Below, piece by piece: positions 11,114-34,933 of a stretch of DNA of 34,976 nucleotides. Source of the stretch: Mycobacteriales bacterium (lineage in GTDB: Bacteria; Actinomycetota; Actinomycetes; Mycobacteriales; SCTD01). The position numbers were made by a program, and so were the translations under genes. Numbering within the stretch: the stretch's first letter is position 1; the number at the start of each line of letters is the position of its first letter. Where the stretch lies: the NCBI GenBank assembly GCA_038255675.1, contig JBBSLB010000002.1:1-34976 (forward strand), given 5' to 3'. Below the pieces are notes generated by a model, which worked only from the letters and a program-made list of their open reading frames with translations, was not told the origin of the DNA and did not search any database.

Positions 11114-11875
11114 ATGTACGCCGAGGAGCGCCAGCAGTACATCGTCGGACTCGCCCGCAGTCGCGGCCGGGTCGACGTGGCCGAGCTGGCCGCCGAGCTC
11201 CAGGTCACCACCGAGACCGTTCGCCGCGACCTGACCATCCTGGAGCGGCAGGGCGTCCTGCGCCGGGTGCACGGCGGGGCCATCCCGGTGGAGCGGCTCG
11301 GCTTCGAGCCGGCGCTGGCGGCCCGTGACAGCGTCATGACCGCCGAGAAGGACCGCATCGCCAAGGCCGCGCTGGCCGAGCTGCCCCAGGAGGGCGCGAT
11401 CCTGCTCGACGCCGGCTCGACGACCGCCCGGCTGGCCGACCTGCTGCCGTCGGACCGGCCGCTCACGGTCGTCACCAACGCGCTGCCGTTGGCGCTGTCG
11501 CTGGTGTCCCGCCCGCACCTCACGGTGCTGCTGCTCGGCGGGCGCGTCCGCGGCCGGACCCTCGCCTCGGTCGACAGCTGGGCCACGGACGCCCTCGCCG
11601 GCACCTTCGTCGACGTCGCCTTCGTGGCCACCAACGGGGTGTCGGTGCGCCGCGGGCTGACGACCCCCGACCACGCCGAGGCCGCGACGAAGCGGGCGAT
11701 GATGGCCTCTGCAGCCCGCGTGGTGCTGCTCGCCGACCACACGAAGGTCGGGGTCGACCACCTCACCCGCTTCGGCGACCTGCACCAGGTCGACACGCTC
11801 ATCACCGACAGCGGGCTCGACGACCGCGCCACCGCCGAGCTCGAGGGCGCCGGACCGCGGGTGGTGCGCGCGTGA
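11114..11875 (+). CDS. DeoR/GlpR-family transcriptional repressor (FruR-like)
   Basis: 253 aa reading MYAEERQQYIVGLARSRGRVDVAELAAELQVTTETVRRDLTILERQGVLRRVHGGA..., i.e. an N-terminal DeoR HTH plus a C-terminal sugar-phosphate sensor domain. Confidence 0.9.
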   Translation: MYAEERQQYIVGLARSRGRVDVAELAAELQVTTETVRRDLTILERQGVLRRVHGGAIPVERLGFEPALAARDSVMTAEKDRIAKAALAELPQEGAILLDAGSTTARLADLLPSDRPLTVVTNALPLALSLVSRPHLTVLLLGGRVRGRTLASVDSWATDALAGTFVDVAFVATNGVSVRRGLTTPDHAEAATKRAMMASAARVVLLADHTKVGVDHLTRFGDLHQVDTLITDSGLDDRATAELEGAGPRVVRA

Positions 11876-12816
11876 TCGTCACCGTGACGCTGAACCCCAG
11901 CCTGGACCGCACCATCGAGGTCGGCGGCCTGGTCCGTGGCGCGCTGGTCCGCGGGACCTCGACGCGCGTGGACGCCGGCGGCAAGGGCGTCAACGTCGCT
12001 CGGGCGCTGACCGCCAACGGCGTGGCCGCCCGTGCCGTGCTGCCGCTCGGCGGGCCGGACGGCGAGCGCCTGCTGGACCTGCTCGCCTCCGCCGGGCTCG
12101 ACGTGGTGGCGGTCCCGGTCCGCAGCGCCACCCGCTCCAACGTCAGCCTGGTCGAGCCGGACGGGACGACGACGAAGGTCAACGAGCCGGGCGGACGCCT
12201 CGACCGCGACGACGTCGAGGCGCTGGTCGCCAGTGTGCTGGCTGCCGCCACGGGCGCCGACTGGGCCGTGCTGTGCGGCAGCCTGCCGCCGGGTGTGCCA
12301 CACGACGTCTACGCCCGCCTGTGCCGCGCCCTGCAGGCCGCCGGGACCAACGTCGCCGTCGACAGCAGCGGCTCGGCGCTCACCGCCGCCCTGGACGTCG
12401 GGCCCGCGCTCGTCAAGCCCAACCGCGAGGAGCTGGCCGAGACCGCCGGGCGTCCCCTGCTGACCCTGGGGGACGTCCTGACGGCGGCCGAGCAGCTGCG
12501 CGCACGTGGCGCCGGCAGCGTGCTGGCCAGCCTGGGCGCCGACGGCGCCCTGCTGGTCGAGCGAGCCGGCGTCCTGCGCGGCCACTCGACGGTGCTCGCC
12601 CCGCGCAGCTCGGTCGGGGCCGGCGACGCGATGCTCGCCGGCTTCCTGTCGGCCGGTGCCGCCGGCGCTCCCGCTCTTGCCACCGCCCTCGCCTGGGGCG
12701 CGGCCGCGGCCGGCCTGCCCGGCAGTCGCATGCCCCTTGCTTCCGACCTCCGGCCGGACGACGTCACCACCAGCCCGCTGCTCGACCGCACGACCCCGCT
12801 GTCCACGTCCCACTGA
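11872..12816 (+). CDS. fruK: PfkB-family ketohexose-phosphate kinase (1-phosphofructokinase / tagatose-6-P kinase class)
   Basis: 314 aa reading MIVTVTLNPSLDRTIEV...GGKGVNVARAL...KPNREEL...GAGDAMLAGF. The GTG start overlaps the DeoR stop (GTGA). Confidence 0.85.
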   Translation: MIVTVTLNPSLDRTIEVGGLVRGALVRGTSTRVDAGGKGVNVARALTANGVAARAVLPLGGPDGERLLDLLASAGLDVVAVPVRSATRSNVSLVEPDGTTTKVNEPGGRLDRDDVEALVASVLAAATGADWAVLCGSLPPGVPHDVYARLCRALQAAGTNVAVDSSGSALTAALDVGPALVKPNREELAETAGRPLLTLGDVLTAAEQLRARGAGSVLASLGADGALLVERAGVLRGHSTVLAPRSSVGAGDAMLAGFLSAGAAGAPALATALAWGAAAAGLPGSRMPLASDLRPDDVTTSPLLDRTTPLSTSH

Positions 12817-12832
12817 CCCAGGAGCGCACCCC

Positions 12833-14005
12833 ATGACCGCAGTCGCTGACGCAAAGCACCTAGAGGGAGCCGGGTTCCGCGCGCGCATCCAGCGCGGCGG
12901 CGGCTACCTCGCCGGCATGATCATGCCGAACATCGCTGCCTTCATCGCGTGGGGCCTGATCACCGCGATGTTCATCCCCACCGGCTGGATCCCGAACGAG
13001 CGGCTGGCCGAGCTGGTCGGCCCGATCATCACCGTGCTGCTGCCCGTCCTGATCGGCTACACCGGCGGGCGCCTCGTGCACGGCCAGCGCGGCGCGGTCG
13101 TCGGCGCCGTCGCCACCATGGGCGTGGTCGTCGGGACCGACATCCCGATGTTCCTGGGCGCCATGCTCATCGGCCCGGCCACCGCGTACGTCCTGAAGCT
13201 CATCGACGGGTTCATCCAGGACAAGGTCAAGGTCGGCTTCGAGATGCTGGTGGACAACTTCACCGCCGGCATCCTCGGCGTGCTGGCGGCACTCGCCGGG
13301 CTGCTCGGGATCGGCCCGGTCGTCGAGGGGCTCACCAAGGCGGCCGGCAACGGCGTGGACTTCCTCGTCGACACCGGCTTCCTGCCACTGGTCTCCCTGC
13401 TGGTCGAGCCCGCCAAGGTGCTCTTCCTCAACAACGCCATCAACTTCGGCGTTCTGTCCCCGCTCGGCGTCGCCGAGGCGACCGAGACCGGCAAGTCGGT
13501 GCTGTTCATGGTCGAGACCAACCCCGGCCCCGGCCTGGGAATCCTGCTGGCCTACTTCTTCTTCGGCCCGCGCCTGCTGCGCCTGTCCGCTCCCGGCGCC
13601 ATCGTCATCCACTTCCTCGGCGGGATCCACGAGATCTACTTCCCGTACGTCCTGATGAAGCCCAAGCTGATCCTCGCCGCCATCGCCGGCGGCGCCGCGG
13701 GCGTCGGCACGGCCGTCGTGACGGGTGCCGGCCTGGTCTCGACTCCCTCGCCCGGCAGCATCTTCGCCTACGCCGCGGTCACCCCCCGCGGAGGCTTCAT
13801 CCCGGTGATCCTGTCGATCCTGGTCGCCACAGCCGTGTCCTTCGCCGTCGCCTCGCTGCTGCTGGGCTTCGGCCGCGGCGAGAAGGCCGAGGAGGCGCCG
13901 CCGGTGCACGAGGACGCCGTCCCCGTGCAGGCATCGTCGGCCACAGCAGAGACGACCGCCCCCACGCACGCCCCGGCTATGCGCAACACCACCGCGGAGG
14001 CGTGA
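12833..14005 (+). CDS. PTS mannitol-class EIIC component (stand-alone)
   Basis: ATG 12833 follows AGGAG. The product reads ...RARIQRGGGYLAGMIMPNIAAFIAWGLITAMFIPTGWIPNERLAELVGPIITVLLPVLIGYTGGRLV...HFLGGIHEIYFPYVLMKP. This is near-collinear with my recollection of the E. coli MtlA EIIC domain. The upstream part of the track ORF (12506-12832) overlaps fruK out of frame. Confidence 0.9.
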   Translation: MTAVADAKHLEGAGFRARIQRGGGYLAGMIMPNIAAFIAWGLITAMFIPTGWIPNERLAELVGPIITVLLPVLIGYTGGRLVHGQRGAVVGAVATMGVVVGTDIPMFLGAMLIGPATAYVLKLIDGFIQDKVKVGFEMLVDNFTAGILGVLAALAGLLGIGPVVEGLTKAAGNGVDFLVDTGFLPLVSLLVEPAKVLFLNNAINFGVLSPLGVAEATETGKSVLFMVETNPGPGLGILLAYFFFGPRLLRLSAPGAIVIHFLGGIHEIYFPYVLMKPKLILAAIAGGAAGVGTAVVTGAGLVSTPSPGSIFAYAAVTPRGGFIPVILSILVATAVSFAVASLLLGFGRGEKAEEAPPVHEDAVPVQASSATAETTAPTHAPAMRNTTAEA

Positions 14006-14006
14006 G

Positions 14007-14315
14007 ATGCCAACAATTGCAGGCGCTTCCGTGACCAAAGTTGTCATCGCGTGCGATGCGGGGATGGGCAGCAGCGTCATGCTGGCCAGCCAGATGCGCA
14101 AGCGGCTGAAGAAGTACGACGTCGCCGTCGAGCACGTCGCGGTCAACGCGATCCCGGCCGACGCCCAGGTGGTGCTCTGCCACAGCGGGCTCGCCCAGCG
14201 CGCCCGCGGCACCGCCCCCGACGCGGTCGTCGTGCCGTTCCAGATCTTCATGGGCGACCCGGTCTTTGACCAGGTCGAGGCCGCGATCCGGGACGGCGGG
14301 ACCCTCGATGGGTGA
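14007..14315 (+). CDS. PTS mannitol-class EIIB component (stand-alone)
   Basis: 102 aa. VTKVVIACDAGMGSSVMLASQMRKRL matches the MtlA EIIB phospho-cysteine loop (IVACDAGMGSS). Confidence 0.88.
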   Translation: MPTIAGASVTKVVIACDAGMGSSVMLASQMRKRLKKYDVAVEHVAVNAIPADAQVVLCHSGLAQRARGTAPDAVVVPFQIFMGDPVFDQVEAAIRDGGTLDG

Positions 14316-14778
14316 CCAGCTCACCGCCGATGTGCTGCAGCTCGAGGGCGTCCGCCTCGGCCTGACCGCGGTCGACAAGTGGGATGCCGTCCGCCAGGCC
14401 GGCGAGCTGCTCGTGGAGCTCGGGGCGGTCGAGCCCGACTACGCGCCCGCCATGCTCGAGCGCGAGCGCTCGGTCTCGACCTTCATCGGCGAGGGCGTCG
14501 CCATCCCGCACGGCACCGACGCCGCCCGGGCGCTGGTGCTGCGGACCACGCTCGCGGTCCTGCAGTTCCCGGCCGGCGTGGACTGGGACGGCAACGACGC
14601 CCGCATCTGCGTCGCCATCGCCGCCAGCGGCGAGGAGCACGTCGAGGTGCTGTCCGCCCTGGCTGTCGTGCTCATGGACGCCGAGGCCGCCGAGCGCCTC
14701 CGCTCCGCCACCGACCCCCAGGACGTGCTGGCGCTGCTCGCCGGCCTGTCCGCAGACGACGAGGAGACCCCCGCATGA
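14308..14778 (+). CDS. PTS mannitol-class EIIA component (PTS_EIIA_2, stand-alone)
   Basis: ATG 14308 overlaps the EIIB stop (ATGGGTGA). ...VEPDYAPAMLERERSVSTFIGEGVAIPHGT... matches the MtlA EIIA phospho-histidine region. Confidence 0.88.
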   Translation: MGDQLTADVLQLEGVRLGLTAVDKWDAVRQAGELLVELGAVEPDYAPAMLERERSVSTFIGEGVAIPHGTDAARALVLRTTLAVLQFPAGVDWDGNDARICVAIAASGEEHVEVLSALAVVLMDAEAAERLRSATDPQDVLALLAGLSADDEETPA

Positions 14779-15815
14779 GAGTGGCCCGCTTCTACGAGCC
14801 CGGCGACGTACGGCTGGAGGACGCCCCGGAGCCGCAGGTCGGCGCCGGCGAGGTGAAGATCCGTGTGCGCGCCTGCTCGACCTGCGGCACGGACGTGAAG
14901 ATCCTCAACCACGGGCACCAGCACATCGACCCGCCCCGGGTCATGGGGCACGAGGTGGCCGGCGAGGTCGTCGACGTCGGTGCCGGCGTCAGCGGCTGGG
15001 CCGCCGGCGACCGCGTCCAGGTCATTGCGGCCGTCCCGTGCGGGACGTGCGCAGAGTGCGCGCGCGGCCGCATGACCATCTGCCCGAACCAGACCTCCGT
15101 CGGCTACCACTACGAGGGCGGCTTCGCGGAGTACCTCGTCGTGCCGCAGCAGGTGCTGGCCGTCGACGGCCTGAACCGGATTCCCGACGGCATCAGCTTC
15201 GCCGAGGCCTCGGTCGCCGAGCCACTGGCCTGCGTGCTGAACGGCCAGGAGCTCGCCGGTGTCGGACCGGGCGACGTCGTCGTCGTCGTGGGCGCCGGGC
15301 CGATCGGCTGCCTGCACGTGCGGCTGGCCCGCTCGCGCGGCGCCGCGCAGGTGCTGCTCGTCGAGCTCAACCGGTCGCGGCTCGACCTGTCGGCCGGCGT
15401 CGTCGCCCCCGACGAGGCGATCTGCAGCGCCGAGACCGACGCCGTGGACGCCGTCCTCAAGGCCACCGACGGCCGCGGCGCCGACGTCGTGATCACGGCG
15501 GCAGCCTCGGGCCAGGCCCAGGAGGAGGCGTTGCTCATGGCGGCGCGCGGCGGCCGGGTCAGCCTGTTCGGCGGACTGCCCAAGGACAAGCCGACCATCA
15601 CCCTGGACTCCAACCTCGTGCACTACCGCGAGCTGACGGTCGTCGGCGCCAACGGTTCGAGCCCGTCGCACAACAAGCGGGCGCTGGAGCTCATTGCCTC
15701 AGGTGACGTCCCGGTGCTCGACCTCATCACGCACCGGCTCCCCCTCGAGGGGGTGCTCGAGGCCTTCGGCATCGTCGCGCGCGGCGAGGCCATCAAGGTC
15801 ACTGTCGAGCCGTAA
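14775..15815 (+). CDS. Zn-dependent MDR-family alcohol/polyol(-phosphate) dehydrogenase
   Basis: ATG 14775 overlaps the EIIA stop (ATGA). The product reads MRVARFYEPGDVRLEDAPEPQVGAGEVKIRVRACSTCGTDVKILNHGHQHIDPPRVMGHEVAGEVVDVG...CGTCAECARG...VVGAGPIGC. It has the catalytic and structural Zn ligand patterns and the GxGxxG motif. Confidence 0.85.
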   Translation: MRVARFYEPGDVRLEDAPEPQVGAGEVKIRVRACSTCGTDVKILNHGHQHIDPPRVMGHEVAGEVVDVGAGVSGWAAGDRVQVIAAVPCGTCAECARGRMTICPNQTSVGYHYEGGFAEYLVVPQQVLAVDGLNRIPDGISFAEASVAEPLACVLNGQELAGVGPGDVVVVVGAGPIGCLHVRLARSRGAAQVLLVELNRSRLDLSAGVVAPDEAICSAETDAVDAVLKATDGRGADVVITAAASGQAQEEALLMAARGGRVSLFGGLPKDKPTITLDSNLVHYRELTVVGANGSSPSHNKRALELIASGDVPVLDLITHRLPLEGVLEAFGIVARGEAIKVTVEP

Positions 15816-15851
15816 GCCACGTCCCTGCAGCATTTCTCGAGGAGGAACTCC

Positions 15852-16136
15852 ATGGCACGACGCGAGGCGACCATCGGCTCACGGGTCGGGCTGCACGCCC
15901 GGCCGGCCGCGATCTTCGTTCAGGCCAGCGCTGCGGCGGGCGTCCCGGTGAAGGTGGGCAAGCCCGACGGGAAGCTCGTCGACGCCCGCAGCATGCTCGG
16001 TGTGCTGGCGCTCGGCGCCAGGAACGGCGACACCGTGGTGCTCGAGGCCGAGGGTGACGGCGCAGAGGCGGCGCTTGATTCCCTGGTCGCGCTGCTCCAG
16101 CAGGACCACGACGAGCCGGCCGCCGCGGATGCCTGA
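15852..16136 (+). CDS. ptsH: Phosphocarrier protein HPr
   Basis: 94 aa. GGAGGA precedes the ATG. The product MARREATIGSRVGLHARPAAIFVQ... contains the His-15 motif GLHARPA. Confidence 0.92.
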   Translation: MARREATIGSRVGLHARPAAIFVQASAAAGVPVKVGKPDGKLVDARSMLGVLALGARNGDTVVLEAEGDGAEAALDSLVALLQQDHDEPAAADA

Positions 16137-17793
16137 CCTGGCTACGGCCCTGAGCGGCATCGCCGTCTCCCCCGGCACGGGTGCGGGGCCAGTGTTCTGC
16201 CTGGCCCCGCCCCCGGCACTGCCCGCCCAGGACGGTCCGGTCGACGACCTGACCGCCGAGGCGAGCCGCGCCGTCGCGGCGCTCGAGCAGGTCGCCGCCG
16301 ACCTCGAGCGCCGCGCGGCCACGGCGACGAGCACCGCCGCCGACGTGCTGCAGGCGCAGGCGCTCATGGCCCGCGACCCGGTGCTGGCCGAGTCGGTCGC
16401 CGGGCGGGTGCTCGAGGGGGCTGGCGCGCCGTGGGCCGTCGACGCCGCCCTGCGCGAGCAGCAGGCCGTCTTCACCGACCTGGGCGGCTACCTCGGTGAG
16501 CGCGCGGCCGACCTGGACGACATCCGGGCGCGCGCGGTCGCTGTCTTGCTCGGGCTGGCGATGCCGGGCGTGCCGTCACCGGGAGTGCCGTTCGTCCTGG
16601 TCGCCGATGACCTCGCGCCGGCCGACACCGCGCAGCTCGACCGCAGCCAGGTGCGAGCCCTGGTCACCGCTCGCGGCGGCCCCACCAGCCACACCGCGAT
16701 CCTGGCCCGTGCGCTGGGCATCCCGGCGGTCGTCTGCTGTCGCGGCATCCTCGACCTGGCCGACGGCACGTCCGTGCTCGTCGACGGCACCACGGGTCAG
16801 GTCCGGCAGATCCGCGAGGACGAGGTCGCCGGCGCCCAGGCCGAGGCCGACGCCGCCCGTCTCGCGCAGGCCGCGGTCGCCGGCCCAGGCCGGACCGCCG
16901 ACGGCCACCCCGTCAAGCTGCTGCGCAACGTCGGCTCGGTTGAGGACCTCGCAGGCACCGCCGGAGACGAGTCCTTCGAGGGCGTCGGCCTGTTCCGTTC
17001 CGAGTTCCTCTACCTCGGTCGGACCTCCGCGCCGAGCGCGCAGGAGCAGGAGGCTGCCTACGTCGAGATGTTCGAGGCGATGGGCGGCGCGAAGATCGTG
17101 CTTCGCACCCTCGACGCCGGCGCCGACAAGCCGCTGCCGTTCCTGGACATGGAGGCCGAGGACAACCCGGCCCTGGGAGTACGAGGGCTGCGCGTCGCCC
17201 GGCGCCGGCCCGAGGTGCTCGCCGACCAGCTCGGGGCGGTCGCCCGCGCCGCCGAGCGGACCGGCGCCGACGTCTGGGTGATGGCACCGATGGTCTCTAC
17301 CGTCGAGGAGGCGGCAGCCTTCGCCGAGCAGGTGCACGCGCTCGGCCTGCCCCGGGCCGGGGTGATGGTCGAGGTGCCGGCCGCCGCGCTGCAGGCCGCG
17401 CGGATCCTCGAGGTCGTCGACTTCCTCAGCATCGGCACGAACGACCTGAGCCAGTACACGCTGGCGACCGACCGCATGAACGGCGAGCTGGCCGACCTGC
17501 TCGACCCGTGGCAACCGGCGCTGCTGCAGCTGCTCGCCATGTGCGCGGCGGCCGGCCGTGAGGCCGGCAAGTCGGTGAGCATCTGCGGCGAGGCGGCGGC
17601 CGATCCGCTGCTGGCCCCCGTCCTGGTCGGCATGGGCATCACCAGCCTGTCGATGTCGGCCGCGTCGCTGCCGGCCGTCCGGGCGGCGATGGCCACCCGA
17701 ACACTGGAGTCGTGCGAGAACCTCGCCCGGCTCGCGCTCGCGGCCCGCGACGCCACCTCGGCCCGGGCCGCTGTGGCCGAGCGGTCCGCCTGA
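16129..17793 (+). CDS. ptsI: Phosphoenolpyruvate-protein phosphotransferase (PTS Enzyme I)
   Basis: 554 aa from ATG 16129, which overlaps the ptsH 3' end. Motifs present: GIAVSPGTGAGPV, GGPTSHTAILARALGIPAVV (phospho-His), FRSEFLY, and IGTNDLSQYTLATDR...C (catalytic Cys in SICGE). Confidence 0.93.
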   Translation: MPDLATALSGIAVSPGTGAGPVFCLAPPPALPAQDGPVDDLTAEASRAVAALEQVAADLERRAATATSTAADVLQAQALMARDPVLAESVAGRVLEGAGAPWAVDAALREQQAVFTDLGGYLGERAADLDDIRARAVAVLLGLAMPGVPSPGVPFVLVADDLAPADTAQLDRSQVRALVTARGGPTSHTAILARALGIPAVVCCRGILDLADGTSVLVDGTTGQVRQIREDEVAGAQAEADAARLAQAAVAGPGRTADGHPVKLLRNVGSVEDLAGTAGDESFEGVGLFRSEFLYLGRTSAPSAQEQEAAYVEMFEAMGGAKIVLRTLDAGADKPLPFLDMEAEDNPALGVRGLRVARRRPEVLADQLGAVARAAERTGADVWVMAPMVSTVEEAAAFAEQVHALGLPRAGVMVEVPAAALQAARILEVVDFLSIGTNDLSQYTLATDRMNGELADLLDPWQPALLQLLAMCAAAGREAGKSVSICGEAAADPLLAPVLVGMGITSLSMSAASLPAVRAAMATRTLESCENLARLALAARDATSARAAVAERSA

Positions 17794-17797
17794 GCGG

Positions 17798-18886
17798 TCA
17801 GCCACGGCGGCGCGGCTCGAGCTCCAGCGGCGCGTAGTAGTGCTCGGCGCCTTCCCGCTCGACGTCGGCGAGCCAGTGCCCGTCGTACTGCTCGGTCGGG
17901 CCCTGAGCCGGGTCGGCGAGCGACCAGGCCTGGCGGCGGTAGGTCCAGTTGTCGGGCTGCAGCCGGTGGCTCTCCCGGAACCACGCAACGGCCGGCTCCG
18001 GCGACCCGGCGGCGTGCAGGTGCTGGCCGAGGGCGAAGGCCGCGGCCGCCTGGGCCTGCTCCGCCGGGCGCGGGCGGGAGCGCTCGAGGACCTCCTCGGC
18101 CGACAGCGCGAAGCGGCTGGCGGGGCCGTGTGCGACCCAGTCGCGCAGCGCGCCGACGTAGCCCTCCGGGTCGATCTGCATCGCCTTGAGGTGGGGCTGC
18201 ACGGTGCGCAGCCGGCTCACCGCCGCCGCCGGCAGCGACGCCACGACCTTGGGGTCCTCGAGGTCGTAGCTGGCAAAGGTCGGAGGCGCCGGGTAGGCCG
18301 TCTCGGGCGGGCGGACGACAGTGCCGTCCTCGTCGACCCAGATGCCCGACGGGACGTTGACCACGCCGAACAGCTCACCGAGCCGGTGTCCGCTGTCCAC
18401 CACGACCGGGAAGTCGACGCCGGCGGCGAACGGCGCCGCGGCCGCGGCGCTGGCGTCCATCGCCACGCTGTACAGCTCGAAGCCCGAGGGCGCGAGCTCA
18501 GTGCGCAGTGCCTGCCAGACCGGCAGGTCGAAGCGGCAGCCTCACCAGCTCGCCCAGGCGGCGATCAGCACCTTCTTCCCGCGCAGGGCAGCGAGGGGGA
18601 AGGGCTCGCCCGTCAGCGTCGGGAGCACCAGGTCGGGGGCCTGGACGGTGGTCATCGCCCGTCCACCGCCCGACGGGCCGAGCGACCAGAGACCGGCCGG
18701 CTCGTCGTGCAGCAGCGGCCGCCCCATCCGCTCGGCGAAGGCGGCGAGGTCGACCTGGCCGTCACGAAGCGTGCCGGGCGGCAGCGGCACGCACTGCTCC
18801 TTGCGGCACGCCCCCTCGGGCTTGACCTCCCAGCCGGTCTCCCGCGCGAGCTGGTCGACGGGCACCCGAGATGTCGTGGAGATCAC
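17798..18886 (-). CDS. Thioredoxin-fold ResA/TlpA-like selenoprotein candidate (W-A-x-x-U-G-C motif); the in-frame TGA at 18544-18542 is read as selenocysteine
   Basis: The two track ORFs (tail of 18542-19801 and 17798-18466) are in the same frame, separated only by one TGA. Read-through gives ...APDLVLPTLTGEPFPLAALRGKKVLIAAWASW-U-GCRFDLPVWQALRTELAPSGFELYSVAMDAS...VNVPSGIWVDEDGTVV.... This is a continuous thioredoxin/redoxin fold with the TGA at the position of the first redox Cys. GC3 stays high across the TGA. The start is uncertain: GTG 18886 is preferred because the GC3-rich segment GWEVKPEGACRKEQCVPL is coding. Alternatives are GTG 18865 and ATG 18655. I see no signal peptide or TM helix. 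Confidence 0.72.
18511..18527 (-). promoter_or_regulatory. Candidate bacterial SECIS stem-loop for the WAxxUGC gene
   Basis: The minus-strand RNA is CCUGCC-GGUCU-GGCAGG, a 6-bp stem with a 5-nt loop. It starts 14 nt after the UGA. As I recall, the loop GGUCU resembles the apical G-G-U-C loop of the E. coli fdhF SECIS. Confidence 0.55.
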
Positions 18887-18907: not shown

Positions 18908-20344
18908 GTGCAGCTGCCGGACGGGTGGGTCGTCGTGCTCAAGCGCGACTGCCCCACGTGCACCCTCGTCGAGCCGGTGCTGCACCAGCTGGCTGATGCC
19001 GGCGGGCTGACCGTCTACAGCCAGGACGACCCGGGCTTCCCCGCCGGCCTGACCGTCGTCGACGACAGCGAGCTCGAGTCGAGCTGGCGGCTGCAGGTCG
19101 ACACCGTCCCGACGCTGCTGCGGGTGGAGGACGGCGCCGAGGTCGCCCGTGCCGTCGGTTGGCTCCGCAGCTCCTGGGAGGAGCTGACCGGGGTGACCGG
19201 GCTCGGCCCCGACCTGCCCGACCACCGGCCCGGCTGCGGCTCCCGCTCGGTCGAGTGGGGCGTCGAGGAGGAGCTCGACCGGCGGTACGGCGAGCGCATC
19301 CTGACCGCCCGCACCGTCGAGCTGGCCGACCTCGAGGACGAGTACGAGGCGGCGTACGCCCGCGGCTGGACCGACGGCCTGCCTGTCGTCCCGCCGACCG
19401 AGGCGCGGGTTCTGGCGATGCTGAAGGGCACGTCGCGCGCGCCGGACGAGGTCGTCGCCGTCGTGCCGCCGGACCTGGTGGAGTGCACCGTCGAGAAGGT
19501 CGCGGTCAACGCGGTGCTGGCCGGCTGCCTGCCCGAGCACCTGCCGGTGGTCCTGGCCGCCGTTGCCGCGGCCTGCACCGACGGCTTCAACATGCACGGC
19601 GTGCTCGCCACGACGATGCCGGCCGGCCCGGTCGTCGTCGTGAACGGCCCTGTGGCGCGGGCGATCGGCATGAACAGCGGGGTGAACGCGCTCGGGCAGG
19701 GCAACCGCGCCAACGCCACGATCGGCCGGGCGCTGCAGCTCGTGGTCCGCAACGTCGGCGGCGGCCGCCCCGGCGAGGTCGACCGCGGCAGCCAGGGCCA
19801 ACCGGGCAAGTACACCGCCTGCTTCGCCGAGGACGAGGAGGGCTCCCCCTTCGACCCCCTGGCCGAGAGCCGTGGGGTCGAGGGCTCGGCCCTCACCCTG
19901 TTCGCCGGCTGCGGCTGGTGGCCCGTCGTCGACCAGCTGTCACGCACCCCGGAGTCGCTGGCCCGCAGCCTCGCGGCGGGCCTGCGCGGCGTCGGCCACC
20001 CCAAGCTGGCGATCGTCTTCGACGCGCTGCTGGTGCTCAGCCCCGAGCACGGCCGGGTCTTCCGCGAGGCCGGCTGGGACCGCGCGCGGCTGCTGGCGGA
20101 GCTCGACGGGCTGCTGACCGTCCCGGCCGCTGAGCTCTCCCGCGGTGTCGACGGCATGGCCGAGGGGATGCCACCGGCCATGATCGCCGGTTGGGGCCAG
20201 GCCGTGCCGCTGCCGAAGTTCCGCCCCGGCGGCCTGCTCATCGCCCACGCCGGCGGCACCGCCGGGCTGTTCTCGACCATCGTGCCCGGCTGGGTCAGCG
20301 GCGCCGGCGGCAGCGAGCCCACCACCGTCCCGATAGGAGCCTGA
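18908..20344 (+). CDS. Thioredoxin-like (CPTC) domain fused to a ~350-aa conserved domain of unknown function; partner of the two selenoprotein candidates
   Basis: Only the 3' part of the 834-aa track ORF (17840-20344) is credible. From GTG 18908 it reads VQLPDGWVVVLKRDCPTCTLVEPVLHQLADAGGLTVYSQDD...DTVPTLLRVEDG (thioredoxin-like), then ...ARGWTDGLPVVPPTEARVLAML...VAVNAVLAGCLPEHLPVVLAA...GVNALGQGNRANATIGRALQLVVRNVGGGRPGEVD.... The region upstream of 18908 is antisense to the ResA-like gene. The stop overlaps the next start (TGATG). Confidence 0.7.
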   Translation: MQLPDGWVVVLKRDCPTCTLVEPVLHQLADAGGLTVYSQDDPGFPAGLTVVDDSELESSWRLQVDTVPTLLRVEDGAEVARAVGWLRSSWEELTGVTGLGPDLPDHRPGCGSRSVEWGVEEELDRRYGERILTARTVELADLEDEYEAAYARGWTDGLPVVPPTEARVLAMLKGTSRAPDEVVAVVPPDLVECTVEKVAVNAVLAGCLPEHLPVVLAAVAAACTDGFNMHGVLATTMPAGPVVVVNGPVARAIGMNSGVNALGQGNRANATIGRALQLVVRNVGGGRPGEVDRGSQGQPGKYTACFAEDEEGSPFDPLAESRGVEGSALTLFAGCGWWPVVDQLSRTPESLARSLAAGLRGVGHPKLAIVFDALLVLSPEHGRVFREAGWDRARLLAELDGLLTVPAAELSRGVDGMAEGMPPAMIAGWGQAVPLPKFRPGGLLIAHAGGTAGLFSTIVPGWVSGAGGSEPTTVPIGA

Positions 20345-20859
20345 TGCGCGTCCTGCTGGATCCCACGTCCGAGCGCGTTCCCTCGACGCGCACCCTGAAC
20401 CCGCGGCCTGCCTCGCTCGACGGACTGACGGTCGGGCTGCTCGACATCTCCAAGGCGCGCGGTGACGTGCTGCTCGACCGGCTGGAGTCCCGGCTCGTGG
20501 CCGATGGGGTGACCGTCCGGCGCTACGCCAAGCCGACCTTCGCCAAGCCCGCGCCGGTTGACCTGCGGCACGAGATCGCCGTGCAGTGCGAGGTGGTCAT
20601 CGAGGCGCTCGCCGATTGAGGCAGTTGCGCGTCGTGCAGTGTGCACGACATCGCCGACCTCGAGGCCCGCGGCCTGGTGGGGGTCTTCCTGGCCAGCAGC
20701 GAGTTCCAGGACGCCGCCGACGCGCAGTCGCGCGCACTCGGCCTTGCCGTGTCCTACGTCCTGGTGCCGCACCCGATCCAGGACCGCACCGACGAGGAGA
20801 TGACGGCGCTGGCCGATGCGGCGTACGACGCCGTTCTGGCGGCAATTACGGACAGATAG
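20344..20859 (+). CDS. UGSC-motif small selenoprotein candidate; the in-frame TGA at 20617-20619 is read as selenocysteine (U92)
   Basis: ATG 20344 is preceded by TAGGAG. Track ORFs 20191-20619 and 20641-20859 are in the same frame, 21 nt apart. Read-through gives ...CEVVIEALAD-U-GSCASCSVHDIADLEARGLVGVFLASSEFQDAADAQSRALGL...VLVPHPIQDRTDEEM...ITDR. This is 171 aa with the motif U-x-x-C-x-x-C. Confidence 0.75.
20631..20649 (+). promoter_or_regulatory. Candidate bacterial SECIS stem-loop for the UGSC gene
   Basis: GUCGUGCA-GUG-UGCACGAC is a perfect 8-bp stem, or 7 bp with loop AGUGU. It starts 11 nt after the UGA, and the loop contains G-U. This is the canonical spacing for bacterial SECIS elements. 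Confidence 0.6.
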
Positions 20860-25494: not shown

Positions 25495-25761
25495 GTGCCG
25501 AGCCGCCGGATCGCCCGCCCCGACCCGCCGCCGCTCGAGACCGACGACGTCAAGGTGGTCGCCGTCGGCACCGCAGCGTGGGCCCTCGGTCTGCTGGTCC
25601 TGCTGGGCCTCGCGGCCACGGACGCGGCCGACGTCTCCGGCTGGTGGATCGGGATGTGCGTGTACGGCATCGCTCTCGGCCTGTTCGGCATCCGCTACTG
25701 CCAGCGCCGACGCGCCGCGATCGAGCGCGACAAGGCCCGGGGCATCCCGCAGGCCTCCTGA
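25495..25761 (+). CDS. DUF2530-family small membrane protein
   Basis: 88 aa with a GTG start and two TM helices (VVAVGTAAWALGLLVLLGL and WWIGMCVYGIALGLFGI). The gene is divergent from the NCS2 permease, which I recall as a common arrangement in actinobacteria. Confidence 0.6.
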   Translation: MPSRRIARPDPPPLETDDVKVVAVGTAAWALGLLVLLGLAATDAADVSGWWIGMCVYGIALGLFGIRYCQRRRAAIERDKARGIPQAS

Positions 25762-25770
25762 CCCCTTCCT

Positions 25771-25791
25771 GACACCAGGCCTGTTGGTGTC
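25771..25791 (+). terminator. Hairpin GACACCA-(7 nt)-TGGTGTC downstream of the DUF2530 gene
   Basis: 7-bp perfect stem with no U-tract, immediately followed by AAGGAG upstream of the GMC oxidase gene. It could be a terminator or an attenuator. Confidence 0.3.
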
Positions 25792-25812
25792 AAGGAGTCC
25801 GGCGTACGGTGC

Positions 25813-33233: not shown

Positions 33234-34511
33234 TCACGGGCAGAGTCTTGCGAACGCCCGGTCCTTGCCTGCGGCCTTTGCCGCGTACAGGGCGAGGTCG
33301 GCTTGGGCGAGCAGGTCCGCCGACGTGCGGATGGTCGCGCCGGGGAGCCAGGTCGACAGACCCACGGACACGCTCAGCGACCGGTCGCCGGCCTGCCGGA
33401 TGCTCACCTGACGGGCCGCAGCGACGAGTCTGTCGGCGACCGCGTGCGCGCCCCCGGCGTCGATGCCCGGCAGCACCACGGCGAACTCCTCGCCACCGAA
33501 GCGCGCAAGGACGTCGCCCGCGCGCTGCAGTGATCCGCTGAGAGCCCGGGCGACGCTGCAGAGGGCCGCGTCCCCCACCAGGTGGCCGAAGGCGTCATTG
33601 AAGGACTTGAAGTTGTCGATGTCGATCATCAGAACCGACAGGGGTTCTGCGGCACGTGTGCAACGGCGCCACTCGCTGCGCAGGGCCTGGTCGAAGGCCC
33701 GGCGGTTCGGGACGCCCGTGAGGGCGTCGCTCATGACCATGCGGAGCATCTGCTCCTCCATGGCCTTCTCGGCGCTGACGTCGAGAACGAGCCCGACCGC
33801 CCGGGCCGGTCTGCCACGTCGGTCCCGGTCCAGGATCCTTCCCCGCAAGGACAGATGACGGGTCGTGGCCTCGTTTCCGACCCGGAGCTCGACCTCCGTC
33901 GCGCCGACGGTGAGGAGCTCCTGGACCGCTACCAGGACTCGGTCGCCATCGTCGGGATGAACTGCGGCCGCGAGGGCTTGGGCGTCGGCGGGCAGGGACT
34001 CCGCGGTCAGGCCCAAGACCTCGGCGGCCTGCGGCTCCCAGGTGAACAGACCCTGGCCGATGTCCAGGTCCCACAGCGCGGCGACCGTCTGGCCGAGGGC
34101 GAGGTCCAGCCCGGTGCGCAGGTGCAGGCTCTGCGCCAGGAGCAGGTGGAAGCGGGTGGTGTCGCGACCGGCGGCCCACCAGAGGTCGCTGTCGGGGATA
34201 GGGCGCGCCACCCACTCCAGGTGGACGGTGCCCCCGTCCCTTTTCACGAAGCGGTTGTCCAGCAGCACCTCGGCGGCACCCGTCTCCAGAGCGGCCAGGG
34301 CCGCCACGACAGCACCCAGGTCGTCGGGATGGACGAGCTCCAGCAGGGAGCGGTCCTGGGCCTGCGTGGTGCTCAAGCCGAGCAGGGTGGCGAAGGGCTC
34401 GTTGACCTCGCGCAGGTGCCCGTCCAGACCGGCGACGGAGAACAACTCGACCTCGGAGGTGCGGAACGTCGACCTGACGCCCGCCAGCGACGCTTCGGGG
34501 AGCACCGTCAC
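33234..34511 (-). CDS. PAS-PAS-GGDEF diguanylate cyclase (GGEEF active site, RxxD I-site)
   Basis: 425 aa. Two PAS-like segments are followed by ...DALTGVPNRRAF...MIDIDNFKSFNDAFGHLVGD...LQRAGDVLARFGGEEFAVVLPG.... RAGD lies 5 residues before GGEEF. The GTG start overlaps the BLUF stop (GTGA). Confidence 0.9.
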   Translation of the reverse strand: MTVLPEASLAGVRSTFRTSEVELFSVAGLDGHLREVNEPFATLLGLSTTQAQDRSLLELVHPDDLGAVVAALAALETGAAEVLLDNRFVKRDGGTVHLEWVARPIPDSDLWWAAGRDTTRFHLLLAQSLHLRTGLDLALGQTVAALWDLDIGQGLFTWEPQAAEVLGLTAESLPADAQALAAAVHPDDGDRVLVAVQELLTVGATEVELRVGNEATTRHLSLRGRILDRDRRGRPARAVGLVLDVSAEKAMEEQMLRMVMSDALTGVPNRRAFDQALRSEWRRCTRAAEPLSVLMIDIDNFKSFNDAFGHLVGDAALCSVARALSGSLQRAGDVLARFGGEEFAVVLPGIDAGGAHAVADRLVAAARQVSIRQAGDRSLSVSVGLSTWLPGATIRTSADLLAQADLALYAAKAAGKDRAFARLCP

Positions 34512-34933
34512 CGGACGCGGTTCTTCGCGTAGAGCTTCAGCAGGGTCTGCGCCACGCCCGCGTTCGTGACCAGGTCGGGGTTGACCAGCGGGTAGTCGGT
34601 GGCGGGGGTGAAGCCGTCGAGCTCCTCCGCCAGGTCCTCGTCGTCGACGTGCTCGAAGCCCATCGTCCAGTCCGGGAACAGCGGCGCGGCGACGTCGGCA
34701 TTCATCAGCAAGCGCAGGTTGACGTGCCGGTCGTCGGTCGCGATCCGCGCATAGGTCTCCCTCAGCGCAGCCGCGTCGCCCTCAAGCACCTGCAGGAAGC
34801 TCTGGCTGCTGTAAAGAAGCATGCCGCTGAGACCAACCTCCTCGTTGTTGCTCCTGGACACTTCGAGCAGCCGCACGAGCTCTGCAGGGCTCATGTCGTG
34901 GGTGGCCTGGCTGCAGTAGATGACACGCTTCAT
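34508..34933 (-). CDS. BLUF-domain blue-light FAD photoreceptor (stand-alone)
   Basis: 141 aa reading MKRVIYCSQATHDMSPAELVRLLEVSRSNNEEVGLSGMLLYSSQSFLQVLEGDAAALRETYARIATDDRH...DWTMGF. The conserved BLUF Tyr, Gln (FLQVLEG) and Trp/Met are present. Confidence 0.9.
   Translation of the reverse strand: MKRVIYCSQATHDMSPAELVRLLEVSRSNNEEVGLSGMLLYSSQSFLQVLEGDAAALRETYARIATDDRHVNLRLLMNADVAAPLFPDWTMGFEHVDDEDLAEELDGFTPATDYPLVNPDLVTNAGVAQTLLKLYAKNRVR

What the first reader, a model, noticed from the sequence alone, without database searches (positions are those of the whole stretch)
20617..20649. UGSC: in-frame TGA giving a U-x-x-C-x-x-C motif, with a perfect 8-bp hairpin 11 nt downstream
The sequence GCC GAT TGA GGC AGT TGC GCG TCG TGC AGT GTG CAC... 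joins two track ORFs into one 171-aa protein. The 21 nt between them encode G-S-C-A-S-C-S, which is too Cys-rich and too well framed to be a spacer.

The hairpin GUCGUGCA-GUG-UGCACGAC (20631-20649) sits at the classical distance for a bacterial SECIS.

The UxxCxxC spacing is, as far as I recall, the motif described for the substrate-specific selenoprotein B of glycine/sarcosine/betaine reductases. This hints at a distant GrdB/PrdB-like chemistry, but I cannot confirm homology by eye.
Basis: partly seen in the sequence, partly recalled or inferred. Interest (0 to 1): 0.85.

Follow-up and report, generated by a model that had tools for sequence, protein, structure and literature searches.

The report
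Known UGSC-family selenoprotein gene with SECIS
The in-frame TGA at 20617 is a real selenocysteine codon in an ordinary member of the already catalogued "UGSC" selenoprotein family, whose biochemical function is still unknown, and it sits in a conserved two-gene cassette with a thioredoxin-fusion partner.

Summary
ORF 20344-20859 (+) has one in-frame TGA (20617-20619), reads EALAD-U-GSCASCSVHD, and has a perfect 8-bp hairpin (20631-20649) 11 nt after the TGA.

The read-through protein scores above the curated cut-offs of NCBIfam NF041046 "UGSC family (seleno)protein" and Pfam PF24696. This family has been described since 2007-2008 and its function is unknown.

In 160 related genomic loci this column is TGA (137), TAG (10, all Geodermatophilaceae, a lineage reported to read UAG as Sec) or Cys (13). 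Only the stop-codon forms freeze the synonymous sites of the next codons into a 7-8 bp stem with an invariant GU loop. Cys forms have no hairpin. selA-selB-tRNASec lie beside the gene in 18 loci, but not in this window.

Beyond the finding:
- An uncharacterised gene (18908-20344; thioredoxin domain plus an unknown ~360-aa domain) sits immediately upstream in 154/160 loci, often with an ATGA overlap. Elsewhere its unknown domain is fused to UGSC.
- The predicted fold is flavodoxin-like, not thioredoxin-like.

A second selenoprotein gene (WAxxUGC, TGA 18542-18544, minus strand) lies next door.

Verdict: real, already known, modest interest.

The parts
20344..20859 (+). UGSC-family selenoprotein gene. 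171 aa with Sec at residue 92, ATG start, TAG stop at 20857-20859.
   Evidence: Translation. NCBIfam NF041046 146.1 bits against a cut-off of 125. Pfam PF24696 141.9 bits. The downstream half keeps frame and accumulates synonymous differences against 8 orthologues.
20617..20619 (+). UGA selenocysteine codon (U92) in the motif D-U-G-S-C-A-S-C.
   Evidence: Among 160 related loci plus the window, the same column is TGA in 138, TAG in 10 and TGC/TGT in 13. Of the 120 best database proteins, 79 are fragments ending ...EALAD and 33 have Cys here.
20631..20649 (+). SECIS-type hairpin inside the coding sequence (codons for A/T-S-C-S-V-H-D). 7-8 bp stem, apical loop (A)GUG(U), starting 11 nt after the UGA.
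   Evidence: MFE fold. Synonymous-site freezing occurs only in Sec forms. Pair counts: 97.1% of cells paired, pair 4 is G-C 84 / G-U 26 / A-U 3 with none broken, and sliding the partner by one column drops pairing to 1.5-14%. GU in the loop in 138/138. Cys forms lack the hairpin, MFE -5.2 against -11.7 kcal/mol.
20336..20339 (+). GGAG Shine-Dalgarno-like motif upstream of the UGSC start. The start overlaps the partner's stop (ATGA, 20344 shared).
   Evidence: Read directly from the sequence. The 4-nt stop/start overlap is found in 72 of 140 loci where both genes could be delimited.
18908..20344 (+). Partner gene, 478 aa. N-terminal thioredoxin-fold domain (CPTC, C14/C17), then an invariant P-G-C-G-S linker motif (C109), then an uncharacterised ~360-aa domain with invariant C206 and C304. 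This is probably the 'Unknown_1' domain of Zhang & Gladyshev 2008.
   Evidence: Immediately upstream of UGSC in 154/160 loci across Actinomycetota, Proteobacteria, Bacteroidota and Myxococcota, in both Sec and Cys forms. No Pfam or NCBIfam family. AF2 and Foldseek recognise only the thioredoxin domain. Conserved residues. Its C-domain is fused to UGSC in P0340, P0348, P0368, P0382, P0410, P0378 and P0384.

Best explanation
Window 20344-20859 encodes an orthologue of the known 'UGSC-containing' selenoprotein family (NF041046 / PF24696).

Shown: the UGA at 20617 occupies a column that is Sec or Cys throughout the family. It is followed, 11 nt downstream, by a hairpin that is under RNA-level selection only in genes carrying a stop codon at that column.

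Inferred from the standard bacterial mechanism: SelB-GTP-Sec-tRNASec binds this SECIS hairpin on the translating mRNA and delivers Sec to the UGA, giving one 171-aa protein.

Inferred from an AlphaFold2 model of a 61%-identical Cys homologue:
- The protein is a five-stranded flavodoxin-like alpha/beta domain.
- U92 sits at the N-cap of helix 3, right after strand 3.
- C95 and C98 are one and two turns further along that helix.
- The other invariant residues (D34, K37, R39 after strand 1; K63-P64-T65 after strand 2; H101-D102; H143-P144 after strand 5) lie on the same C-terminal edge of the sheet, which is the usual active-site location in this fold.

Proposed function (inferred, not shown): UGSC is the redox-active selenol/thiol subunit of a two-component oxidoreductase. 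Its other subunit is the co-translated upstream protein. U92 attacks a substrate or a partner cysteine and is resolved as a U92-C95 selenenylsulfide (with C98 as a possible relay). The partner's own thioredoxin domain (C14/C17), perhaps via the C109 linker cysteine, re-reduces it. The partner's unknown C-domain (C206, C304) would carry substrate specificity. The substrate is unknown.
For: Family membership: both above the curated cut-offs.

Prior description as a selenoprotein of unknown function: PMC1976440, PMC2398784, PMC13188914.

Sec/Cys column: 138 TGA (the window's own gene plus 137 related loci), 10 TAG and 13 Cys; truncated database proteins end exactly at ...EALAD. The TAG forms are confined to Geodermatophilaceae, whose tRNASec has a CUA anticodon and whose UGSC genes were already reported with TAG (PMC5330540).

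SECIS.

Purifying selection downstream of the UGA.

Sec machinery adjacent to the cassette: partner-UGSC-selA-selB-tRNASec in Pseudohongiella, Halopseudomonas and relatives, and selA-selB-tRNASec-partner-UGSC in four actinobacterial MAGs.

A second, independent selenoprotein gene with a conserved TGA and hairpin lies 1.4 kb away in the same window.

Partner linkage: 154/160 loci, ATGA overlap, domain fusions.

Fold: AF2 pLDDT 90.7 and secondary-structure order; Foldseek hits to lumazine synthase, flavodoxin, CheY-like and MttC domains. The partner's N-terminal domain is a thioredoxin fold.
Against: - No tRNASec, selA, selB or selD is present in the 35-kb window, so Sec competence of this particular organism is inferred, not shown.
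- The hairpin by itself is not improbable in a 74% G+C window.
- The stem is so conserved that true compensatory changes are few (4 cells, 2 pairs). The case rests mainly on frozen synonymous sites and the Sec/Cys contrast.
- No Rfam family matches.
- The functional model (redox relay with the partner) rests on conserved cysteines, gene linkage, fusions and a predicted structure. There are no biochemical data for any member.
- The partner's C-domain model is only moderately confident (pLDDT 74) and has no recognisable relatives.
Confidence: 0.93

Rival explanations
1. The TGA is a genuine stop. The locus is a split or decaying gene, or two small independent genes (91 aa and a 72-aa GTG-ORF).
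For: Automatic gene callers truncate here. 79 of the 120 best database hits are ~94-aa fragments. TGA is also the ordinary stop of the upstream gene.
Against: The stop is kept at the same column in 148 of the 161 sequences compared (the window plus 160 related loci), across several phyla. The 21 nt after it always encode GSC(T/A)(S/T)C in frame. The downstream 76 codons keep frame with many synonymous changes. The single predicted domain needs both halves: strand 3 is before the Sec and helix 3 after it. Cys forms are contiguous proteins.
Confidence: 0.02
2. The UGA is read through by something other than Sec, such as near-cognate Trp or Cys insertion or an altered genetic code.
For: A few database proteins show W or R at the column (P0001, P0002, P0004, P0032). 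These could be code-4 translations or single-base variants.
Against: The hairpin with an invariant GU loop at the SelB-type distance exists only in stop-codon forms. tRNASec(UCA), selA and selB are adjacent in 18 loci. The codon switches to TAG exactly in the lineage whose tRNASec carries CUA (PMC5330540). TGA is used as a normal stop by the neighbouring gene.
Confidence: 0.03
3. Functional rival, and the first reader's hint. UGSC is a remote homologue of the Sec-bearing part of GrdB/PrdB, and the cassette carries out a GrdB/PrdB-like reductive C-N cleavage. The partner would play the role of the substrate-binding proprotein, and its thioredoxin domain would replace GrdA/Trx.
For: UxxCxxC is the published GrdB/F/H motif (PMC6778437, PMC13188914). 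In read-through GRDB-like proteins the local layout is the same: hydrophobic strand, U-x-x-C, helix, 'GI/GV' strand, then a V-P-x-P loop. hhalign puts the Sec columns in register. Both systems pair a small Sec subunit with a larger partner and depend on thioredoxin-type reductants. The invariant P-G-C-G-S motif sits in a disordered linker of the partner, exactly between its two domains. That is where a self-processing site could be.
Against: No GRDB or Gly_reductase Pfam hit for either protein. hhalign Prob 0.3%, P 0.21, and the partner's Trx CxxC gives a comparably weak alignment to the same GRDB-like region. The third Cys is W/A/I in fused UGSC relatives, and marine GRDB-like proteins have only UxxC. 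The hosts are mostly aerobic Actinomycetota and Proteobacteria rather than Stickland fermenters. No structural comparison was possible.
Confidence: 0.1

Closest known systems
UGSC-containing selenoprotein family (Zhang & Gladyshev 2007/2008; NCBIfam NF041046; Pfam PF24696; prototype Hyphomonas neptunium ABI76733.1)
   Same: Passes both curated HMMs. Same U-G-S-C motif, same ~170-aa length, same Sec/Cys column, SECIS directly downstream. [quoted passage not shown]
   Different: Nothing essential; this is an orthologue. Points not found in the papers read here:
- The predicted fold is flavodoxin-like, whereas the 2008 paper suggested 'likely Trx-like'.
- The thioredoxin-fusion partner gene is near-universal and often overlaps the UGSC start.
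- The SECIS stem is frozen at nucleotide level.
GrdB/GrdF/GrdH and PrdB (Pfam PF07355 GRDB), the Sec subunits of glycine/sarcosine/betaine and D-proline reductases
   Same: U-x-x-C(-x-x-C) motif placed after a hydrophobic strand at the start of a helix. A small Sec subunit works with a second protein and a thioredoxin-type reductant.
   Different: No detectable sequence homology. No GrdE/PrdA-type pyruvoyl proprotein next door. Different host physiology. The third Cys is not conserved across the wider UGSC family.
ResA-like WAxxUGC selenoprotein (NCBIfam NF041054), encoded divergently at 17798-18886 in this window
   Same: Also a UGA-Sec gene with a coding-region hairpin carrying a GU loop. 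Also a thiol-type redox motif (U-G-C).
   Different: A genuine thioredoxin/AhpC-TSA fold protein. It is adjacent to the UGSC cassette in only 5 of 160 loci, so the linkage is lineage-specific, not systemic.
Escherichia coli fdhF-type bacterial SECIS (own knowledge of the Bock laboratory's work; bSECISearch model of Zhang & Gladyshev 2005)
   Same: Hairpin inside the ORF beginning about 11 nt after the UGA. Conserved G-U in the apical loop. It constrains the downstream amino acids.
   Different: Shorter and simpler: 7-8 bp, a 3-5 nt loop, no bulged U evident. SelB binding is untested. No Rfam model matches it.

Membership tests
UGSC family (seleno)protein (NF041046 / PF24696) | Whole-protein HMM score above the curated cut-off | tested here: met
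   NF041046 146.1 bits (cut-off 125), residues 26-168 on model positions 1-146/147. PF24696 141.9 bits (cut-off 25), residues 4-169 on model positions 2-171/172.
UGSC family (seleno)protein (NF041046 / PF24696) | U/C-G-S-C motif, with the first position Sec (stop codon) or Cys in homologues | tested here: met
   Window: D-U-G-S-C. Among the window plus 160 related loci: 138 TGA, 10 TAG, 13 TGC/TGT. 33 Cys proteins among the top 120 hits.
UGSC family (seleno)protein (NF041046 / PF24696) | Bacterial SECIS element downstream of the Sec codon | tested here: met
   Hairpin at 20631-20649. Conserved only in stop-codon forms, with frozen synonymous sites and an invariant GU loop.
UGSC family (seleno)protein (NF041046 / PF24696) | Selenocysteine actually incorporated (Se in the protein) | not testable with these tools
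   Needs 75Se labelling or MS of the peptide EALAD-U-GSCASCSVHDIADLEAR.
UGSC family (seleno)protein (NF041046 / PF24696) | Host genome encodes selA, selB, selC and selD | tested here: inconclusive
   None in the 35-kb window. The rest of the genome is not available. selA, selB and tRNASec are adjacent to the cassette in 18 related loci, and a second Sec gene is in the window.
GrdB/PrdB (Pfam PF07355 GRDB) | Match to the GRDB profile | tested here: not met
   No GRDB hit at E<=1. The Pfam model ends at the Sec position, so it covers only the part N-terminal to Sec.
GrdB/PrdB (Pfam PF07355 GRDB) | Profile-profile similarity across the Sec-containing region | tested here: not met
   hhalign of the UGSC alignment against 23 read-through GRDB-like proteins: Sec columns in register, but Prob 0.28%, E/P 0.21. 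The partner's Trx CxxC motif gives a comparably weak alignment to the same GRDB-like region (Prob 0.58%, E 0.1).
GrdB/PrdB (Pfam PF07355 GRDB) | U-x-x-C-x-x-C motif | tested here: inconclusive
   Present in the window and in all 160 close loci. The third Cys is W/A/I in fused UGSC relatives, and the marine GRDB-like proteins examined have only U-P-x-C.
GrdB/PrdB (Pfam PF07355 GRDB) | Adjacent GrdE/PrdA-type pyruvoyl proprotein (Pfam Gly_reductase) | tested here: not met
   The conserved neighbour has no Pfam or NCBIfam family apart from weak thioredoxin hits. hhalign of the partner against GRDB-like proteins gave nothing.
Thioredoxin-fold selenoproteins (suggested for UGSC in PMC2398784) | Thioredoxin fold with the UxxC at the N-terminus of helix 1 | tested here: not met
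   The AF2 model (pLDDT 90.7) is beta-alpha repeated five times, with Sec after strand 3. Best PDB matches are lumazine synthase, flavodoxin, CheB receiver and the MttC corrinoid domain at TM about 0.5, with no thioredoxins. This rests on a predicted, not solved, structure.

The most novel reading that the evidence does not exclude
UGSC, the 'Unknown_1' domain and a thioredoxin module together form one obligate, previously unrecognised selenol/thiol reductase. It is widespread in aerobic Actinomycetota and Proteobacteria, with about 2,200 clusters at 50% identity. Its Sec sits on a flavodoxin-like scaffold, not a thioredoxin one. Its chemistry may parallel GrdB/PrdB, with reductive cleavage on a partner subunit that might self-process at the invariant P-G-C-G-S linker. 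In several marine gammaproteobacteria the whole Sec machinery (selA-selB-selC) is encoded directly behind this cassette. That suggests the cassette is a principal reason those genomes keep selenocysteine.
Probability: 0.2. Interest if true: 0.6.

Novelty: already known. Interest (0 to 1): 0.25.

Why it matters
For annotation, two ORF fragments should be merged into one selenoprotein, and the same applies to the WAxxUGC gene next door. Most public gene calls of this family are truncated at the Sec codon (79 of the top 120 hits).

[quoted passage not shown] This analysis gives a concrete starting point for finding that function:
- a near-obligate partner gene, and domain fusions with that partner;
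- a built-in thioredoxin domain in the partner;
- a non-thioredoxin fold for UGSC;
- direct linkage to selAB-selC in some genomes.

None of this makes the window's gene itself surprising.

Tried and rejected
- Rfam, at gathering thresholds and at permissive E-values around the site: nothing relevant.
- PDB sequence search with the UGSC profile: only a spurious 19-residue CGSCTSC match to the TET3 CXXC domain, E 5.9.
A natural Cys homologue, P0003, was used instead.
- GrdB/PrdB link. A GOS 'GrdB' read composite was used as seed. The protein search returned only proteins truncated at Sec, so 23 genomic loci were fetched and translated through the TGA. Single-sequence and profile hhalign were both insignificant.
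- Partner C-domain: no Pfam, NCBIfam, PDB-sequence or Foldseek match beyond the thioredoxin domain. hhalign against GRDB-like proteins and against UGSC was negative.
- P0271, an apparent partner+UGSC fusion of 651 aa, looks like a frameshifted translation rich in Arg runs. It was not used as evidence.
- Sigma-70 promoter and intrinsic-terminator scans around the cassette found nothing.
- The two other TGAs followed by 8-bp hairpins were checked. 25759 is the ordinary stop of a small membrane-protein ORF with a terminator-like hairpin; 30921 showed no coding evidence.
- Other window neighbours (orf20890, DUF6328, PtsI) are not conserved next to UGSC in any locus.

Full report
**Observation.** The window is 73.6% G+C. 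On the + strand an ORF starts at ATG 20344, overlapping the TGA stop of the upstream gene as ATGA, and runs to TAG 20857-20859. It has a single in-frame TGA at 20617-20619. Read-through gives 171 aa with ...VVIEALAD-U-GSCASCSVHDIADLEARG.... GUCGUGCA-GUG-UGCACGAC at 20631-20649 is a perfect 8-bp hairpin starting 11 nt after the TGA, and it is part of the MFE fold. Within this window alone such a hairpin is not remarkable. There are 13 perfect 8-bp hairpins on the strand against 14 in shuffles, and 3 of 304 TGAs are followed by one. The evidence that matters is comparative.

**Identity.** With U replaced by C, the protein scores 146.1 bits on NCBIfam NF041046 'UGSC family (seleno)protein' (equivalog, cut-off 125) and 141.9 bits on Pfam PF24696 'UGSC family'. 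The family was named 'UGSC-containing protein' by Zhang and Gladyshev. They called it 'a selenoprotein of unknown function' found in Hyphomonas neptunium and ocean metagenomes (PMC1976440). In the GOS data it was one of the most abundant selenoprotein families, with 255 Sec and 21 Cys forms, more frequent in non-marine samples, 'likely Trx-like fold', and with a UGSC/'Unknown_1' fusion (PMC2398784). A 2026 review still lists it as uncharacterised (PMC13188914). The feature is therefore real and already catalogued.

**The Sec/Cys column.**
- The 80 genomic loci closest to the window protein are Actinomycetota, mainly Mycobacteriales/Geodermatophilaceae and Acidimicrobiia (best hit 88% identity). 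All have a stop codon at this column: 70 TGA and 10 TAG.
- A second set seeded on Cys homologues added Proteobacteria, Bacteroidota and Myxococcota. Counting the window, the total is 161 sequences: 138 TGA, 10 TAG and 13 Cys.
- The TAG cases are all Geodermatophilus or Blastococcus. Geodermatophilaceae are reported to carry tRNASec with a CUA anticodon and UGSC genes with TAG (PMC5330540). The stop codon thus co-varies with the tRNASec anticodon.
- Among the 120 best database proteins, 33 have Cys at the column and 79 are ~94-aa fragments ending exactly at ...EALAD, which are gene calls truncated at the Sec codon.
- Downstream of the TGA the frame is kept for 76 codons with many synonymous differences against eight orthologues.

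**SECIS.** In 138 distinct stop-codon genes, third-position entropy falls to 0.23, 0.15, 0, 0 and 0 bits at codons +4 to +8, and 0.15 at +10. Flanking codons vary freely (1.0-1.9 bits), as do the same codons in the 13 Cys-form genes (0.39-1.95 bits).

The frozen segment ACG-UCG-UGC-AGU-GUG-CAC-GAC forms the stem:
- Four pairs are invariant.
- Pair 4 is G-C (84), G-U (26) or A-U (3) and is never broken.
- Over the whole stem, 97.1% of cells are paired. Sliding the 3' partner by one column drops this to 1.5-14%.
- The eighth pair opens in 13 of the 113 aligned sequences, so the element is best described as a 7-bp stem with an N-G-U-N-U loop. G-U is invariant in 138/138.
- Cys forms have no hairpin (mean MFE -5.2 against -11.7 kcal/mol).

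Residues +7/+8 are always S-V, C-M or S-L in Sec forms but S-T, A-I or T-L in Cys forms. The RNA element therefore dictates part of the peptide sequence. Strict compensatory changes are few (4 cells), so the argument rests on synonymous-site freezing and the Sec/Cys contrast. No Rfam family matches.

**Sec machinery.** None is in the window. Eighteen related loci encode selA and/or selB next to the cassette, and 14 carry tRNASec(UCA) within 6 kb. The orders are partner-UGSC-selA-selB-tRNASec in Pseudohongiella, Halopseudomonas and other Gammaproteobacteria, and selA-selB-tRNASec-partner-UGSC in four actinobacterial MAGs. The window also contains a second selenoprotein gene (see 'Noticed in passing'), which independently argues that this organism decodes UGA as Sec.

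**Context.** The gene immediately upstream (18908-20344, 478 aa) is found directly upstream of UGSC in 154 of 160 loci, in Sec and Cys forms and in all phyla sampled. Several of the exceptions lie at contig ends. The 4-nt ATGA stop/start overlap is present in 72 of 140 loci.

Features of this partner gene:
- It has no Pfam or NCBIfam family.
- Its first ~105 residues model as a thioredoxin fold with an invariant CPTC.
- An invariant P-G-C-G-S motif lies in a low-confidence linker.
- A ~360-aa domain with invariant C206 and C304 follows. It has no detectable relatives in the PDB.

An exhaustive profile search found 2,195 clusters at 50% identity (E<=1e-3). Several are proteins in which a Cys-type UGSC domain is fused N-terminally to this same C-domain without the thioredoxin module (P0340, P0348, P0368, P0382, P0410, P0378, P0384). 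This is very probably the 'UGSC/Unknown_1' fusion of the 2008 paper. Gene order, translational coupling and fusion together argue that the two proteins work as one unit. No other window neighbour is conserved.

**Fold.** An AlphaFold2 model of a natural Cys homologue (P0003, 61% identical; pLDDT 90.7, pTM 0.85) is a (beta-alpha)x5 three-layer sandwich. The best PDB matches are weak (TM about 0.5) and of the flavodoxin-like kind: lumazine synthase, flavodoxin, the CheB receiver domain and the MttC corrinoid domain. There are no thioredoxins among them. In window numbering, U92 lies between strand 3 and helix 3, and C95 and C98 are on the first turns of that helix. The remaining invariant residues (D34, K37, R39; K63-P64-T65; H101-D102; H143-P144) follow strands 1, 2 and 5. 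All of them therefore lie on the C-terminal edge of the sheet, where this fold class normally has its active site (inference).

**The GrdB/PrdB idea.** Homology was tested as follows.
- No GRDB Pfam hit. That model stops at the Sec position.
- I recovered 23 GRDB-like genes and translated them through their TGA. They read ...VD.V.L.PV-U-P.C....
- hhalign against the UGSC profile puts the Sec columns and the following strands in register, but with Prob 0.3% and P 0.21. The partner's thioredoxin CxxC gives a comparably weak alignment to the same GRDB-like region.
- The partner is not GrdE/PrdA-like.
- The third Cys is W/A/I in the fused UGSC relatives.

Membership is therefore not supported.

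**Mechanism.**
- Shown: the Sec/Cys column, the SECIS-type element, the coupled partner and the fusions.
- Inferred from established bacterial Sec biology: SelB-dependent recoding.
- Proposed: UGSC is the selenol/thiol redox subunit. U92 acts as nucleophile, C95 resolves it as a selenenylsulfide, and C98 is an optional relay. The partner's C-domain supplies substrate specificity, and its thioredoxin domain (possibly via C109) recycles the Sec subunit. The fused forms, which lack the thioredoxin module, would use free thioredoxin. The substrate is unknown.

**Verdict.** This is a correct and well-observed finding of an already known selenoprotein family. The main interpretation is supported and the GrdB hint is not. 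Interest is low to moderate. It lies in the unsolved function of an abundant family and in the partner, fusion, fold and selAB-linkage leads assembled here.

**Noticed in passing.**
- A second selenoprotein gene lies on the minus strand (17798-18886, TGA at 18542-18544...AAWASW-U-GC...). It scores 467 bits on NF041054 'ResA-like WAxxUGC' and has an AhpC/TSA-Redoxin fold. Its TGA and a CUGCC-GGUCU-GGCAG hairpin are conserved in five orthologues. Its start is 21 nt from the partner's start, on the opposite strand.
- A DeoR-regulated PTS operon occupies 11114-17793.
- A BLUF plus PAS-GGDEF gene pair lies at 33234-34933.

Noticed in passing
window 17798-18886 (- strand); TGA at 18542-18544: A second selenoprotein gene. 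It reads ...KKVLIAAWASW-U-GCRFDLPVWQ..., scores 467 bits on NCBIfam NF041054 'ResA-like WAxxUGC motif-containing protein' (cut-off 300), and has an AhpC/TSA-Redoxin fold. Its TGA and a downstream hairpin CUGCC-GGUCU-GGCAG are conserved in five orthologous loci (L001, L004, L005, L008, L033). It is transcribed divergently from the UGSC partner gene, with the two start codons only 21 nt apart. The adjacency is seen in just 5 of 160 loci.
   Followed up: partly
L007, L013, L015, L018, L030, L039, L044, L055, L067, L068 (Sec column, e.g. L007:6271-6273): In Geodermatophilus and Blastococcus genomes the Sec column of UGSC is TAG instead of TGA, and the downstream hairpin is unchanged. This matches the published UAG=Sec recoding with tRNASec(CUA) in Geodermatophilaceae (PMC5330540, citing Mukai et al. 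2016). The window itself uses TGA.
   Followed up: partly
L097:6568-9976 and equivalents in L095, L096, L100, L103, L106, L108, L109, L114, L115, L124, L130, L135, L137; L029, L034, L065, L077 upstream: selA (Pfam SelA, 522 bits), selB and tRNASec(UCA) are encoded directly next to the partner-UGSC cassette in 18 loci from Gammaproteobacteria and Actinomycetota. This suggests that in those genomes UGSC is a main client of the Sec machinery.
   Followed up: partly
proteins P0340, P0348, P0368, P0382, P0410, P0378, P0384 (not in the window): Natural fusions of a Cys-type UGSC domain (N-terminal) with the partner's unknown C-domain, without the thioredoxin module. In these the third Cys of UxxCxxC is W, A or I, and P0378 also lacks the second Cys. 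P0343 carries an N-terminal HTH domain in front of UGSC.
   Followed up: partly
window 18908-20344, residues 107-111 of the partner protein (about 19226-19240): An invariant P-G-C-G-S motif (93/93 sequences) sits in a low-confidence linker exactly between the thioredoxin domain and the unknown domain. It could be a shuttle cysteine or a self-processing site. It is unexplained.
   Followed up: no
window 11114-17793 (+): A DeoR-family regulator followed by PTS components (EIIC 12482-14005, EIIA 14110-14778, HPr 15816-16136, enzyme I 16000-17793). This is an ordinary sugar-PTS operon and is not conserved next to UGSC elsewhere.
   Followed up: no
window 33234-34933 (-): A BLUF blue-light sensor gene (34508-34933) lies directly upstream of a PAS-GGDEF diguanylate cyclase gene (33234-34511), with overlapping stop and start. 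This may be a light-regulated c-di-GMP module.
   Followed up: no
window 25759-25800 (+): This TGA is also followed by a perfect 8-bp hairpin (UGACACCA...UGGUGUCA). On inspection it is the normal stop of a small membrane-protein ORF, with a terminator-like hairpin, just before the GMC oxidoreductase gene. It is not a Sec candidate.
   Followed up: yes
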